NCBI GenBank assembly: GCA_026770705.1
Contig: JANJGN010000030.1
Coordinates: forward strand, 24,738,001-24,802,000
DNA: 64,000 nucleotides
Reading direction: 5' to 3'
Source: Isurus oxyrinchus
Lineage: Eukaryota
The position numbers were made by a program. Of this stretch, positions 3,001 through 30,000 are shown in pieces (the stretch's first letter is position 1; each line of letters opens with the position of its first letter).

Positions 3001-6000
3001 CACGCACACCCTCACATCCCCATCAGGCTCGTACCCTCTGGAACTCACATCCTCATCCTGTCCATGGCTCCGCTCACCACACAAACATTCCACTCAGTGC
3101 CCTGTGTCCTGCTCACACTCTCTTCATCTGTTTCCATGCAGGAGAAGCTGGCTCACATCGGCAAGAAGAGGCCCCAGATCAAGGGTGGAGAGGCCCACAT
3201 TAGGCCCCTCACTCACTTTGAGGAGCGTGCCATTGCACTGACTGGTGCGGACATGGACCATGCCTGGGGGGGTGGGGTGATGGTTGTGGGGATTCCTTGA
3301 CAACATCCCTCTCTCAATGCAACTGTGAGTGCTCTCTCTCTCTCTCCTGCTTTTGACTCTGCTGCCGGGCCCTACTTATCTCTACTTTGGTTCACAGGGA
3401 GCTCTGCTAAGTGACCAACACCCTCAGCCAGCCAGTCCCTCAGCTCCATCCATGTCCTCACCACCAGCCAAGAGGACACTTCCTCCATTGAAAAGCTGGA
3501 AATAAGCAGCCTGGAAGACCCATCACAGCGCTTACCCACACCCTCCACCAGCGCAGAGACACACACCTCGGTGGGACCTAGATCTAGAACAGGCTCGAGT
3601 TCACAATCCGGTGGATACGGACACATGTCCGCAGCAGGAGGAGGCAGGTTCAGCCGAGCTCCCCAGCACTCGGAGGGCTGCTGGGGAAGAGGCGTCTGTG
3701 AGGCCCGAGTCAGGTGATGAGCCTCCAGCTCACCCTGGAGAGTCAGCAGAAGGCAGGAGAACATCACGTGGAGCTGTTGGAAACCCTCAACAGGGTGGCA
3801 CGTGAGTCGGAGGAGTGAGTCTGCCTGCTCTCTGATGAAGTGGTGCCCACATGTGCTCATATGGAGGTCTCCATGGGGAGGATGGAGCAGAATGTGGAGA
3901 TGCACACAGACCTGCACTCCATCGCGGGAGCCGTGAGTGAGTTCCTGCAATGGCGACACGAGAGGGAAATGGGGCATCTCGACACCCCCTCCAGGTGCTG
4001 CTTCCCCTCAAGGAGTCAGGCTGGGGCCCCCAGGCACCCGAAGGGAGGAGGAGTGGCAGCTGGAAATCCCTAGGTCATCCACTCAGGAATTTCAGAGGCT
4101 GTCCTTTCCCTCAAAGTCCCCTTTGCCAGTGAGACCCTCAACCTCATCCTCTGTCACTGCAGAGAGTGCAGCTGGCCAATGACTGATTCTGGAGGGAGAA
4201 GAGTGTGTGTGTGTGTGTGTGTAGCAGGGCCTTTCGGAGCCTCGGGCAAGCACTCTCCATGCACGCGGACCCTTCACTATTCACACTCACCTCAGTGTCC
4301 GGAGCATTTTCAATGCTGCCTGCTGGGGTTCACTTTCAGTTGTCCATCTGAGCTGACCTGTATCTCCTCCCACCCACTGATCACACTCCCATGCAGCACC
4401 TGATCTCGTTCACCATGACTGTCGTTCCACTTTCGATTTGAACATCATGGTCTGGATTCGCTTTTTCGTGCGGTCCTCCATCTTTTCCCCTCCCCCAGTT
4501 ACCCATTTCCTCTCCCCCATCACAATTGGCCCCCAGCTCTGGGCATCACCTTCCACCTCCCCTCCGTGACCTACCAGCCACAACCCTTTTCCTTTGGGAA
4601 TGTCCAGGTGAAAGTGAATGTTCCCTTCCTTCCCTAAAATCCCATCCCCACCCACATTCACCTTCCCGACCTTCTCCTTCCCACCCTCAAGTGTCCGTGT
4701 CTGCCCCCAAGTCCCCGCCAACCACCCTTGCCACCCCTTCTACCACTGCAGTCGAACCCTTACCCTCCCATCCTATCACCTCAATCTGCCCTCGGTCATT
4801 CTCACCAATCCCTCATACCACACCCACCCTCAATTCGCTCCCCAGAGCGTAGTCATGGACCCATGAAACCCCTCCCTGGACATCTGCCCCACCATCCCCT
4901 TCCCCCTGGAACCTCTTACCCACTCTGGTCCCTTTCCCACCCGGTTACTCTCTCCCCGTCCAGACCCCTCCCCCCCGGAATCCCTTCCCCTCCGGACCCC
5001 TTCCCCCTGGAACCCCTTCCCTCTCACTGGACTCCTTCTCCCCTTCTCCCCTTCAGACCCCTTCCCCTGGAACCTCCTCCTCTCCTTAGCCTCCCGGCCA
5101 CCATCCCCTTCCCCTGGCCCCCCACCCCCACTTAGTCCCTCCCCCTTCCTGACTCCCTCAGACACCCTTACTTCTTCTGCCACCCTTAGTCCTCCCCCCC
5201 CTCCCGACTCCCTCCTCCAGCCTTACCTCTTCCTCCAGCCTCATTTCTTCCCCCAGACTTACTCCTTGTCCCCTCCCAACTCCTTCCTCCACCCTTACTT
5301 CTTCCTCCACTCTTACTCCCTCCAGTGTCCGTACTCCTTCCTCCCCCCCCCCCCCGGACTCCCTCCCCTCTCCACACTCCTTCCCCCTTCCCCGGACTCC
5401 CTCCCCTCTTCGTACTCCTTCTTCTCCCTAGACTCCCTCACCTCTCTGCACTCCTTCCCCGCTCCGAACTCCTTCTGTAATACCTTCCACTCCGCTAACA
5501 CTTACCTCTCCAGTGGCCATCTTCTCTTCTGTTACCCTGTCCTCCCCCGTATTTCCAGTTACCCACGTTGGTGTGGGCCCTAGGGTCACATGTAGGCCGG
5601 AACAAATGGCAGATTTATTTCCCTAAAGGACATTAGCGACCCTGTTGAGTAGTTTGATGGGTCTGTTGATAATTAAATAGCTCATTCACATCTGCCATGG
5701 GGGCCCATGTGTTAGTGATATTTCTACTCAATGATACACAGTAATTATCACCTCCCCAACTGAGTTTATTGTAAATGTTTTCTATTAATATATAACATGC
5801 AATTACACACACTTTCACCGCTCATTATGAAGAAGATACAATTAATTACAGACTATTATTCATACATGGGGTGAGACCAGCACACGCTACCTGTTGCACT
5901 ATCTATGGCCACCCTCCAGGATTCTCTCTCAACTACATACTTGGCGTCTGTTAAATATTGCCAATGAGCAACTGTCTGAAAAAGAATCTACAAATAATTC

Positions 6001-27000: not shown

Positions 27001-30000
27001 GAACCCACCCAGAAGCTGGAAAGGTAGAACAGACGTATTAAGTGAATAGAATTCAAATTTGAGTGAAAGGTTTTACATAAATGAAAAAGCTGATTCTCCC
27101 CCGATTGGTCAAAAAGATCGAGCGAGTCAAAAAGACTGAGATGTTTTTACTGTTATAAAGTCAGACATTTAAAGGCAAATTGTTGGAAGTTAAACTGGTG
27201 GCAGCACAAAATTGCATGAATCGATATTGAAAGATGGACTCACTCAGAGAATGCAGGTATTGACAATACGTCATGCGTGTGCATTATAGGAATCATTTCT
27301 GAGGCTCGAGTGAAGCTACCTTGGCCTGGATTTTGGGTTCTAAGGGCAGCTTACTCCCAATTAGTGAGAAATAGGCTTTGCACAAAGGAGGTGATATTAG
27401 GACAGGTGATGGGAAACTTGGCCAATGAGCTAGGCTTTAAGGAGGATGGACCAAATGGCCTCCTTTTTTGCTGTAACGACTCTATGTGGAGAGGTTAAGG
27501 AGGGGAATCCCAGAGCTTACAGCTTAAATGACTGAAGCCACAGGCAGCAAGGGTGGAACGAAAGAAATGGTGGACCATAAGTTGCCAGTCACTGAGACAG
27601 AAAATAGAGACAGGTTCAACAGACATCCAAGTACGTTATGTAGAAAGAGGGGGGGGTGGAGAGATACAGAAAGGAGCTGAGAACCAGTGTTTGAAATCAG
27701 TCAAAGAAAGATGGATCCAATGGCCAAGGTTGGAGAAACGAAGGCGGAAACGTTGACAAATTTCTAGCCGAATTTCCCTGCACCTGAGTTTGGGGAGACG
27801 ATGTTGAAATGTCACGGGACTAGTAATCCAGAGGCCCGGACTAGTGCTGTGGGGACATGGGTTCAAATCCCTCCACAACATCTGGTGGAATTTACATTCA
27901 GTTAATAAATCTTGAATTGAAAGCCAGTCTCAGTGATGGGGTGACCCCATGACACGTAGACCATCTGTTGTTAAAAACCCACCTGGTTCACTAATGCCCT
28001 TTAGGGAAGGAAATCTGCCATCCTTACCTGGTTTGGACTGCACGTGACTCCAGACCCCCACACCAATGTGGATGGCGCTTAACTGCTCTCTGAAATGTCT
28101 TACCAAGCCACTAGGTCAAGGGTAATTAGGGATGCTGGTCTTGCCAGCAATGTCCACATCCCATGAAAGAATAGAGAAAAAAAGAATCACATCACTGTTT
28201 GCTAGTACAACACTTGAGTATTGCTGGAAAGGGAGACATGTAGAAGCTTTTCGTCTTGCACTCATCAGGGCCAATATCAATATAAGGGGGAAACAACAAT
28301 TTATACTGTATGTGAAGAGTGCTGATTAGTTGGCAAGTGGACTCTGATTGGAAGAGGTGTTGCCATGGAGAATTCATGATGGTGATGGTGACTGACAGTT
28401 AACTGCCCAGCATTGTTTGGAAGTTAAACCAGTATAAATTGTTGTTTTCCCCTTTTTTTAAGTGCCCTGATGAGTGCAAGACGAAAAGCTTTGACATGTC
28501 TCTTTTTTCAGCAACACTCAAAAAGAATCACGGTGGGTGGGGACCTTTTGTCACATTTGCCCTGCAGAAATGTGCAAAATGGGTGGAAATTTGGTGTAAG
28601 GTGATCTCTGCCTGATGGTGCGATCCAATTTGCGGAAATCAATTTGGGCATCAGTAACCCTGCTCTGTAGCGTAAGTCGAAATTTGTTCTGCAGCAGGAA
28701 CCTAACCTGGACATGACTGCTGTGTGCAAAAGGGAGAGCAGTCTTTACCCTGCACAAACATCCCTTAGCCTAACGACTGCTTAGCATCATTGAACTTTAG
28801 AAGCCATCAAAGTGAGTCGATAAAGCCACTTAATACCCGTGGAAGGAGACGGACTTTTTCTTCTTGGTGAAGAGCCATTTTTTCTCTTTCTTCGTGTGCT
28901 CGAGGTTGATGCCTGACATGTCTCCTTTGCATCTGATCTGCTCCTGACTGGTGTTCCGGTGCTGGCTCAGCTCGTCGGACTGCCAGATTGTTTTGAAGAC
29001 AATCTCCGTCATTCTTCGAGGCCTCACTGTCTCGATGCTGGAGTGAGAGGGTGAGGAAGTGGCTGGCGGGGCAAGGCAGCGAGTTGGGATGGGTGTGGCC
29101 AGGAAAGAGATCCACTCAACTTAATCAGTGGGTTAACTCGCCTCACATTTTCTTTACTTGCTCTGGTAAGGAACGCCTCCATCAACGGCCCAGGAGAATT
29201 CCTTTCTCACAGGAAGAGAAACAACACAGAGAACAATGGGTCATGATAGCAGAAGCAAATCTCATAACAGTGGAAAGAACATAGAGATTGAAGTTCCATA
29301 ACAGCCGAGAGAATGCAGGAAGTGACGCATCACAATAGCATAAAGAACACAGGAAGTGATGCGTCACAATAGCATAAAGAACACAGGAAGTGATGCATCA
29401 CAATAGCCTAAAGAACACAGGAAGTGATGCGTCACAATAGCATAAAGAACACAGGAAGTGATGCATCACAATAGCATAAAGAACACAGGAAGTGATGTGT
29501 CACAATAGCGTAAAGAACACAGGAAGTGATGCATCACAATAGCGTAAAGAACACAGGAAGTGACGCGTCACAATAGTGTAAAGAACACAGGAAATGAGGT
29601 GTCTAGGGAGGCCAGACATCTGTTTTTTTTTAGTGGACAGTCCAGCTTTAACCTGAACTGCCACTATCCAACAAAAGGCTAGTATGCAGGAACAGCAGGC
29701 AATTAGGAAAGCTAATAGAATGTCATCATTTATTATGAGGGAAATTGATTACGAGAGTACGGAAGTTATGCTCCAGTTGTACAGGGCACTGGTGAGACCA
29801 CATCTGGAGTACTGTGTACAGTCCTGGTCTCCTTATTTAAAGAGAGATGTAAATGCATTAGAGGCAGTTCAGAGATTCACTAGACTAATACCAGGAATGG
29901 GAGGGTTTTTTTCATTCATTCATTCATGGGATGTGGTCCTTGCTAGCCAGGCCAGCGTTTATTGTCTTTGAGGAAAGGCTGGACAGGTTAGGTTTGTATC

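What the first reader, a model, noticed from the sequence alone, without database searches (positions are those of the whole stretch)
5951..29182. Complete unannotated-looking ~465-aa coiled-coil gene directly downstream of TRPM4
Seen: 11 minus-strand exons (29142-29182, 28837-29037, 24788-25004, 23330-23407, 20330-20413, 19678-19749, 16774-17051, 15278-15472, 12788-12853, 7364-7504, 5951-5975) join with consistent phases into one stop-free frame (1398 nt), followed by AATAAA at 5765. The protein has a basic N-terminus, a Ser-rich disordered segment and several heptad-like helices. Most exons are invisible or mis-framed in the ORF track. I recognise no family; it may be a fast-evolving or chondrichthyan-restricted gene (inference).
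Basis: partly seen in the sequence, partly recalled or inferred. Interest (0 to 1): 0.7.

Follow-up and report, generated by a model that had tools for sequence, protein, structure and literature searches.

The report
Shark TSKS gene, model partly wrong
The supposed orphan gene is the shark copy of TSKS, a known sperm-development protein already annotated in other sharks and rays, and three of the eleven proposed exons plus the proposed protein end are not supported.

Summary
The 11 minus-strand segments exist as described: all are open in the stated frame, they sum to 1398 nt, and they have 10/10 AG acceptors and 9 GT + 1 GC donors. The gene is not an orphan. [quoted passage not shown] It is also 100% identical to an NCBI protein named TSKS-like from Cetorhinus maximus. 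Eight exons (2-8 and 10) tile that 464-aa protein exactly, with 397/410 identical residues. Five of those eight are colinear with a caecilian TSKS. Exons 1, 9 and 11 have no counterpart in 0 of 8 elasmobranch orthologues. The conserved start Met lies inside exon 2. The conserved last 51 residues of the orthologues are absent from the readable window, so the model is not complete. An RVxF-type PP1-docking motif (KSVSF) sits in exon 2. The likely role, inferred from mouse, is a phospho-regulated spermatid scaffold. The upstream neighbour is a TRPM4/5-type channel, and TRPM4 itself is not confirmed. Verdict: already known, low interest.

The parts
28837..29037 (-). The conserved start codon is the ATG at 29012-29010. 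Bases 29013-29037 are probably 5'UTR, not coding.
   Evidence: P0001 residue 1 aligns at 29012; 56/58 residues identical. The Met aligns with the start Met in 6 of 6 elasmobranch models that have this exon, and in the caecilian P0009. A at -3 of the ATG.
28842..28856 (-). KSVSF, an RVxF-type PP1-docking motif within exon 2
   Evidence: the pattern [RK]-x(0,1)-[VI]-{P}-[FW] is found once in exon 2. It is at residue 53 in 6 of 6 full-N-terminus elasmobranch orthologues and appears as KAVSF at residue 56 in the caecilian TSKS. PMC9073834 (passage) places the RVxF motif of TSKS at aa 51-55.
24788..25004 (-).
   Evidence: 72/72 identical to P0001 residues 60-131; matched in 6 of 8 orthologues. E 5e-6 to caecilian TSKS residues 69-102.
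23330..23407 (-).
   Evidence: 23/26 identical to P0001 residues 132-157; present in 6 of 8 orthologues, absent from P0004 and P0005. E 4e-4 to P0009 residues 168-193.
20330..20413 (-).
   Evidence: 28/28 identical to P0001 residues 158-185; present in 6 of 8 orthologues, absent from the batoids P0007 and P0008.
19678..19749 (-).
   Evidence: 22/24 identical to P0001 residues 186-209; 8 of 8 orthologues at E <= 0.006.
16774..17051 (-).
   Evidence: 88/92 identical to P0001 residues 210-301; 8 of 8 orthologues.
15278..15472 (-).
   Evidence: PF15358 at E 3.7e-9, 36.4 bits (cut-off 27), profile positions 143-197 of 395; 64/64 identical to P0001 residues 303-366; 8 of 8 orthologues. E 5e-8 to P0009 residues 357-412.
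7364..7504 (-). It is the last supported exon in the window, with donor AAG|GTCAGT.
   Evidence: 44/46 identical to P0001 residues 368-413; 8 of 8 orthologues. E 3e-7 to P0009 residues 416-460. Sequence read.
29142..29182 (-).
   Evidence: 0 of 8 orthologues. GC donor. The orthologues and the caecilian protein start at the Met inside exon 2.
12788..12853 (-).
   Evidence: 0 of 8 orthologues. P0001 passes from residue 366 to 368 across exons 8 and 10; it is one of 352 such segments in this intron; dispersed-repeat copies flank it.
5951..5975 (-).
   Evidence: 0 of 8 orthologues. All 8 continue instead with about 50 conserved residues.
5765..5770 (-).
   Evidence: present; one of 6 on this strand in 1-7363.
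110..534 (.). Run of 425 N. It is one possible hiding place of the missing last coding exon(s) and was left as it is.
48786..48980 (-). Open stretch holding a pore/S6 exon of the upstream TRPM4/5-type channel gene
   Evidence: Pfam Ion_trans at 25.4 bits (cut-off 25). TRPM5 chains 50.2 bits, TRPM4 chains 45.5 bits.
45964..46260 (-). Open stretch holding the TRP-domain exon of the same channel gene
   Evidence: TRPM5 75.0 bits, TRPM2 67.2 bits, TRPM4 66.6 bits.

Best explanation
The locus is the orthologue of TSKS (testis-specific serine kinase substrate) in a shark closely related to, but not identical with, Cetorhinus maximus. It starts at the ATG at 29012. It lacks, within the readable window, the last coding exon(s) for the conserved C-terminal ~51 residues. 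Those exons may lie in the N run at 110-534 or beyond the window's start.

The mode of action is inferred from mouse work and not shown here. TSKS is a largely disordered and coiled-coil scaffold of elongating spermatids. Its N-terminal RVxF-type motif (KSVSF here) docks the phosphatase PP1-gamma2. The kinases TSSK1 and TSSK2 bind and phosphorylate it. The dephosphorylated form condenses into membraneless nuage (reticulated body and chromatoid-body remnant). That nuage is needed to remove spermatid cytoplasm at spermiation, while phosphorylation disperses it.

Shown here: family membership, exon structure, motif conservation, and helical/disordered architecture. Inferred: testis expression, the partners, and condensate behaviour in sharks.
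For: Pfam PF15358 hits exon 8 alone (E 3.7e-9, 36.4 bits against a cut-off of 27) and 6 of 6 orthologues scanned (E 3.1e-20 to 2.5e-22).

A search with exon 8 returned 6 proteins, all carrying PF15358, 4 of them named TSKS-like. P0001 and the profile A1 returned 8 elasmobranch proteins plus the caecilian TSKS P0009 at E 4.9e-29.

The eight exons tile P0001 residues 1-413 with 397/410 identities. Exons 2, 3, 4, 8 and 10 are colinear with P0009 at E 6e-10 to 4e-4.

K[SA]VSF sits at residues 53-57 (56-60 in the caecilian) in 7 of 7 sequences that have the N-terminus. This agrees with the RVxF motif at aa 51-55 reported for TSKS (PMC9073834, passage).

The Atlas's two best clusters are TSKS, at scores 0.88 and 0.85; these are below 0.9, so a lead only.

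The AlphaFold2 model of P0001 has a disordered stretch 1-120 and helices 131-188, 198-225, 247-276, 295-327, 332-386 and 388-444.

Function comes from passages of PMC10242716 (Tsks knockout sterile, nuage lost, phosphorylation switch) and PMC7401350 (TSSK1/2 phosphorylate TSKS; triad with PPP1CC2).
Against: Only 1 of the 9 exon peptides scanned hits Pfam on its own.

Identity to the tetrapod protein is low, 29% in A2. Exons 5, 6 and 7 have no significant exon-wise match to it.

The conserved C-terminal module, with invariant residues including CxxC shared with the caecilian, is not found in the window. The best tblastn E of 0.002 is only read-through past exon 10, and the best profile E is 0.52 among 3437 six-frame stretches. 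A truncated gene therefore cannot be excluded.

The shark proteins stop at Pfam profile position ~296 of 395, so they lack the tetrapod C-terminal extension.

There are no expression data and no partner data for any shark. The structure model is of low confidence (mean pLDDT 53.4, pTM 0.22).
Confidence: 0.92

Rival explanations
1. One reading: a complete, family-less, fast-evolving or chondrichthyan-restricted coiled-coil gene of 11 exons.
For: All 11 segments are open and phase-consistent with canonical or near-canonical splice dinucleotides. Eight of the 9 exon peptides scanned have no Pfam hit on their own. The middle exons diverge fast, for example exon 7 at 48-67% identity to the more distant elasmobranchs.
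Against: Pfam TSKS scores above its cut-off. There are named TSKS orthologues in 8 elasmobranchs and a caecilian. Exons 1, 9 and 11 match 0 of 8 orthologues. The conserved C-terminus is missing.
Confidence: 0.02
2. The 11-exon model, or part of it, is a true lineage-specific isoform of TSKS. It would carry an upstream coding exon 1, a cassette exon 9 and an alternative short terminal exon 11 with its own poly(A) signal. The product would lack the conserved C-terminal module.
For: Exons 9 and 11 have good polypyrimidine tracts before AG. AATAAA lies about 185 nt after the exon 11 stop. NCBI lists several isoforms (X1, X2) for other sharks. Cassette usage of exons 4 and 5 differs among the orthologue models.
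Against: There is no counterpart in 8 of 8 orthologues. Such segments are abundant by chance, with 352 in the exon 8/10 intron alone. Exon 1 needs a rare GC donor, and the start Met is conserved from sharks to a caecilian. Dispersed repeats flank exon 9.
Confidence: 0.06
3. The copy in this genome is truly truncated, having lost the last coding exon(s), and is a decaying or shortened TSKS gene.
For: No trace of the C-terminal 51 residues appears in 7.3 kb downstream of exon 10 or anywhere else in the readable window.
Against: All eight supported exons are intact, with canonical splice sites and 96.8% identity to the Cetorhinus protein. Introns in this gene reach 7.8 kb. The missing exon can simply lie in the 425-N run or beyond base 1.
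Confidence: 0.05

Closest known systems
TSKS-like protein of Cetorhinus maximus (NCBI name; P0001, 464 aa) and the other seven elasmobranch TSKS/TSKS-like models (P0002-P0008)
   Same: The same eight exons, tiled exactly, with 397/410 identical residues to P0001. The same start Met, KSVSF motif and Pfam TSKS core.
   Different: There are 13 amino-acid differences, so the window is not the same sequence. The window shows no C-terminal 51 residues.
Tetrapod TSKS, here the caecilian Geotrypetes seraphini protein (UniRef name; P0009, 609 aa)
   Same: Colinear N-terminus (M-x-x-[VI]-VFKTIWQ), K[SA]VSF motif, TNVSALNL block, QWE, KPL, and the C-terminal PL...CxxC. Profile E 4.9e-29.
   Different: Only 29% identity. 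The tetrapod protein carries about 110 further C-terminal residues, corresponding to Pfam profile positions ~296-395 that the shark proteins lack. Exons 5-7 are not recognisably alike.
Mouse/human TSKS as studied experimentally (PMC10242716, PMC7401350, PMC9073834; passages read)
   Same: Same Pfam family, and an RVxF-type motif at the same N-terminal position (aa 51-55 according to PMC9073834).
   Different: No mammalian sequence was compared directly here. Unnamed hits that might be mammalian or human were not fetched. TSSK1/2 phosphorylation sites, testis expression and nuage formation are untested in any shark.

Membership tests
TSKS (Pfam PF15358) | Match to the family profile above the curated gathering score | tested here: met
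   Exon 8 alone scores 36.4 bits against a cut-off of 27, E 3.7e-9. Orthologues that share the window's exons score 72.9-79.8 bits.
TSKS (Pfam PF15358) | Colinear similarity to a named tetrapod TSKS along the protein | tested here: met
   Searched exon by exon, 5 of the 8 supported exons (2, 3, 4, 8, 10) match P0009 in order at E 6e-10 to 4e-4. Exons 5, 6 and 7 are not significant. The profile of 8 elasmobranch proteins finds P0009 at E 4.9e-29.
TSKS (Pfam PF15358) | N-terminal RVxF-type PP1 docking motif near residues 51-55 (PMC9073834 passage, citing MacLeod 2014, which was not read) | tested here: met
   KSVSF in exon 2 (window 28842-28856). It is at residue 53 in 6 of 6 elasmobranch models with an N-terminus, and appears as KAVSF at residue 56 in the caecilian.
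TSKS (Pfam PF15358) | Conserved C-terminal block (invariant A, PL, I and CxxC from sharks to caecilian) | tested here: inconclusive
   Present in 8 of 8 orthologues. Not found in the readable window. It may lie in the N run 110-534 or outside the window, and the N run was not filled.
TSKS (Pfam PF15358) | Binding to and phosphorylation by TSSK1/TSSK2 | not testable with these tools
   Known for mouse and human only (PMC7401350 and PMC10242716, passages).
TSKS (Pfam PF15358) | Post-meiotic, testis-restricted expression | not testable with these tools
   No transcript data are at hand.
TRPM4 (identity of the upstream neighbour) | Closer to TRPM4 than to TRPM5 or other TRPM members | tested here: inconclusive
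   Two exons were tested against PDB chains. TRPM5 scores 50.2 and 75.0 bits; TRPM4 scores 45.5 and 66.6 bits. Membership in the TRPM4/5 clade is clear, but which member is not. That TSKS and TRPM4 share a human chromosome band is recalled, not tested.

The most novel reading that the evidence does not exclude
The TSKS scaffold, with its PP1-docking K[SA]VSF motif and helical core, already existed in the common ancestor of jawed vertebrates. The elasmobranch protein would then be a short ancestral-type form. It lacks the tetrapod C-terminal coiled-coil extension and ends in a Cys/His cluster that might bind a metal. A phosphorylation-switched nuage for spermatid cytoplasm removal would be far older than the mammalian work implies, and older than the amphibian origin stated for the TSSK kinases in PMC9073834 (passage). 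A smaller variant of this reading is that this lamniform makes a truncated isoform through exon 11.
Probability: 0.35. Interest if true: 0.3.

Novelty: already known. Interest (0 to 1): 0.12.

Why it matters
It matters little as a discovery. The gene belongs to a curated Pfam family and is already named in public annotation of eight sharks, rays and skates.

It is useful as a correction. It shows that a phase-consistent, stop-free chain of AG..GT segments can be about three-quarters right and still carry three spurious exons, a wrong start and a wrong end.

There is a minor biological point. The PP1-docking motif and the helical core of TSKS are conserved from sharks to a caecilian. That makes elasmobranchs, which have internal fertilisation and elongated helical sperm, a possible comparison group for the mouse nuage and spermiation work.

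Tried and rejected
1. Orphan or family-less gene: rejected by Pfam and the named orthologues.

2. Search for the missing C-terminal exon. tblastn with the last 58 residues of six orthologues gave a best E of 0.002, which is only read-through past exon 10; the plus-strand hit at 23539-23667 is chance. A profile of the C-terminal columns against 3437 six-frame stretches gave a best E of 0.52. Nothing was found.

3. Solved structures. The profile A2 against PDB sequences gave 2 hits at E 0.24 and 0.51, so none significant. Foldseek of the low-confidence model against PDB gave 0 hits at E <= 0.001 and 9 at E <= 10, all generic long helices. These are uninformative.

4. Neighbour annotation by Pfam on 444 open stretches. 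These were 123 + 123 + 62 stretches of >= 55 codons on both strands outside the gene, and 136 minus-strand stretches of 33-54 codons above 41 kb. Of the 218 short minus-strand stretches above 29.2 kb listed, the 82 below 41 kb were not sent. Only Ion_trans reached its cut-off. DUF4381 and EGF_4 were below theirs.

A single stop-free stretch was used instead.

8. Literature. The search for 'TSKS' plus 'shark' found 1 paper (PMC4589379), where 'shark' occurs only in a reference title and Tsks is a synteny marker in lizard and coelacanth. A second search combining the TSKS phrase with fish terms returned nothing relevant among its 10 listed papers. So no paper on TSKS in cartilaginous fishes was found in these two searches.

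
Full report
WHAT IS IN THE SEQUENCE

The window has a single N run at 110-534. Each is free of stops in the stated frame, and exon 11 ends in TAA. The lengths sum to 1398 nt. All 10 acceptors are AG; 9 donors are GT and the exon 1 donor is GC. AATAAA lies at 5765-5770 on the minus strand, one of 6 such hexamers in 1-7363.

Where a full-length protein was needed, I used database proteins returned by the tools.

IDENTITY

Nine exon peptides (exons 2-10) were scanned against Pfam; exons 1 and 11 are under 20 residues. 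One of the nine gave a hit. Exon 8 matches PF15358, 'Testis-specific serine kinase substrate', at E 3.7e-9 and 36.4 bits against a curated cut-off of 27.

Searching the protein collection with exon 8 for longer proteins gave 6 proteins among 14 candidates, all carrying PF15358. The best is 100% identical over the exon and is named 'testis-specific serine kinase substrate-like [Cetorhinus maximus]' (P0001, 464 aa).

P0001 as query gave 8 elasmobranch proteins: six sharks, a sawfish and a skate. A profile of these eight added the TSKS of the caecilian Geotrypetes seraphini (P0009, 609 aa, E 4.9e-29).

Pfam scores the six shark proteins scanned at E 3.1e-20 to 2.5e-22 over profile positions 123-296 of 395.

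A full HMMER scan of 1.84 billion cluster representatives found only 28 proteins at E <= 0.001 (16 at <= 1e-10, 6 at <= 1e-30), so the family is small.

The protein Atlas puts two TSKS clusters first, at scores 0.88 and 0.85. These are below 0.9, so they count as a lead only.

WHICH EXONS ARE REAL

tblastn of P0001 on the window finds eight colinear minus-strand matches and nothing else of note; the one other hit, at E 0.47, is on the plus strand.

Exon-wise BLASTP places the exons on P0001 as follows:
- exon 2 on residues 1-58
- exon 3 on 60-131
- exon 4 on 132-157
- exon 5 on 158-185
- exon 6 on 186-209
- exon 7 on 210-301
- exon 8 on 303-366
- exon 10 on 368-413

The tiling is exact. Identity is 397 of 410 residues, 96.8%. 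The window therefore comes from a close relative of the basking shark, not from that sequence itself.

Across the eight orthologues:
- exons 6, 7, 8 and 10 are matched in 8 of 8
- exons 2 and 3 are matched in 6 of 8; the two carpet-shark models lack the N-terminus
- exon 4 is matched in 6 of 8 (absent from P0004 and P0005)
- exon 5 is matched in 6 of 8 (absent from the two batoids)

Exons 1, 9 and 11 are matched in 0 of 8.

The orthologues, and the caecilian protein, start at the Met that lies inside exon 2, the ATG at 29012.

P0001 runs from exon 8 straight into exon 10. The intron between them (7773 nt) holds 352 open, frame-preserving AG..GT segments of 45-300 nt at 151 acceptors, against 252 +/- 38 in 50 shuffles. 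Exon 9 is thus what chance supplies in plenty. Copies of a dispersed repeat flank it.

THE MISSING END

All eight orthologues continue after exon 10 with about 50 residues that include an invariant VDQAVLPLV block and a Cys/His cluster. Several of these positions (A, PL, I, CxxC) are invariant even when the caecilian is included.

In the window this segment is not found. With the last 58 residues of six orthologues, the best tblastn E-values (0.002-0.01) are read-through past the exon 10 donor or plus-strand chance hits. A profile of the C-terminal columns scores at best E 0.52 among 3437 six-frame stretches.

The true last exon(s) may lie in the 425-N run or beyond base 1. The distance available is 7.3 kb, and this gene has an intron of 7.8 kb. 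I did not fill or look up the N run, so this stays open. The gene model is therefore not 'complete'.

ARCHITECTURE AND LIKELY MECHANISM

An AlphaFold2 model of P0001, built with a 9-sequence alignment, is of low overall confidence (mean pLDDT 53.4, pTM 0.22). It shows residues 1-120 without confident structure. Long helices follow at 131-188, 198-225, 247-276, 295-327, 332-386 and 388-444, with the best confidence (73-89) over about 330-400.

No solved structure is related by sequence (2 hits at E 0.24 and 0.51) or by fold (0 hits at E <= 0.001).

Exon 2 carries KSVSF, which fits the PP1-docking pattern [RK]-x(0,1)-[VI]-{P}-[FW]. It sits at residue 53 in 6 of 6 elasmobranch proteins with an N-terminus, and appears as KAVSF at residue 56 in the caecilian. 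A passage of PMC9073834, citing MacLeod et al. 2014 (which I did not read), places the RVxF motif through which TSKS binds PPP1CC2 at aa 51-55.

Passages of PMC10242716 report the following:
- Tsks-null mice are sterile and lack the reticulated body and the chromatoid-body remnant.
- They fail to eliminate spermatid cytoplasm.
- TSKS alone induces nuage-like droplets in cultured cells.
- Co-expressed kinases disperse the droplets, and the phosphatase restores them.

Passages of PMC7401350 summarise TSKS as a substrate of TSSK1 and TSSK2 but not of TSSK3.

From this I infer, but do not show, that the shark protein is a phosphorylation-switched, PP1-docking scaffold of spermatids.

SURROUNDINGS

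Upstream on the same strand lie two exons of a TRPM channel. The first is a pore/S6 exon within 48786-48980 (Pfam Ion_trans 25.4 bits against a cut-off of 25; PDB TRPM5 50.2 bits and TRPM4 45.5 bits). The second is the TRP-domain exon within 45964-46260 (TRPM5 75.0, TRPM2 67.2, TRPM4 66.6 bits). The gene is in the TRPM4/5 clade, but the label TRPM4 is not confirmed by these two exons.

That human TSKS and TRPM4 lie in the same chromosome band is my recollection and would favour TRPM4. PMC4589379 (passage) uses Tsks as a neighbour of Cpt1c/Cpt1a2 in lizard and coelacanth.

No other Pfam-recognisable gene was found in 444 open stretches outside the gene. Of the 218 short minus-strand stretches above 29.2 kb listed (those below 41 kb) were not scanned.

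The region 1-7363 holds tandem arrays and C-rich low-complexity sequence.

COMPARISON AND NOVELTY

The gene is a member of the TSKS family. The profile match, the colinearity with a tetrapod TSKS and the docking motif were tested and met. The C-terminal block is inconclusive in this window. Kinase binding and testis expression are not testable here.

The elasmobranch proteins differ from tetrapod TSKS in lacking the last ~100 profile positions.

Two literature searches found no paper on TSKS in cartilaginous fishes. Public annotation, however, already names the gene in eight species.

VERDICT

A real gene, already known in kind.

Noticed in passing
window 45964-46260 (-) and 48786-48980 (-): Both exons tested from the upstream channel gene score higher to TRPM5 than to TRPM4 structures (75.0 against 66.6 bits, and 50.2 against 45.5 bits). 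The neighbour's label as TRPM4 is therefore open.
   Followed up: partly
window 41811-42590 (-); also 54235-54666 (+): A 260-codon open stretch that by eye resembles the C-terminal part of a LINE-type retrotransposon protein. That label is recalled; there was no Pfam hit. A similar-looking stretch on the plus strand surfaced as chance alignments.
   Followed up: no
window 9248-9995, 16077-16381, 24376-24681, 29316-29597, 1498-2157: Minisatellite-type tandem arrays lie in the introns and just upstream of the gene: 28 bp x 26.7, 28 bp x 11, 56 bp x 5.5, 34 bp x 8.3, and 40-174-bp units.
   Followed up: no
proteins P0003 and P0006 (carpet sharks), aligned to window exon 6 (19678-19749): These two orthologue models carry several extra tandem copies of a ~24-residue unit that corresponds to exon 6, which suggests tandem exon duplication in that lineage.
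   Followed up: no
window exons 4 (23330-23407) and 5 (20330-20413): The exon 4 equivalent is absent from P0004 and P0005. The exon 5 equivalent is absent from the batoid proteins P0007 and P0008. These may be cassette exons or lineage differences.
   Followed up: no
window exon 7 (16774-17051): The window and the Cetorhinus protein both lack 8 residues that the other six elasmobranch proteins have after the LCQK block. This is a shared lamniform deletion or an alternative splice site.
   Followed up: no
This is a dispersed repeat.
   Followed up: partly
C-terminus of P0001-P0008 (not present in the window): The orthologues end in a Cys/His cluster. Its CxxC pair is invariant as far as the caecilian TSKS, and it may be a metal-binding knuckle.
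   Followed up: no
window 4001-6000 and 50001-52000: Strong negative GC skew (-0.45 and -0.55), with C-rich low-complexity repeats at 4953-5472.
   Followed up: no
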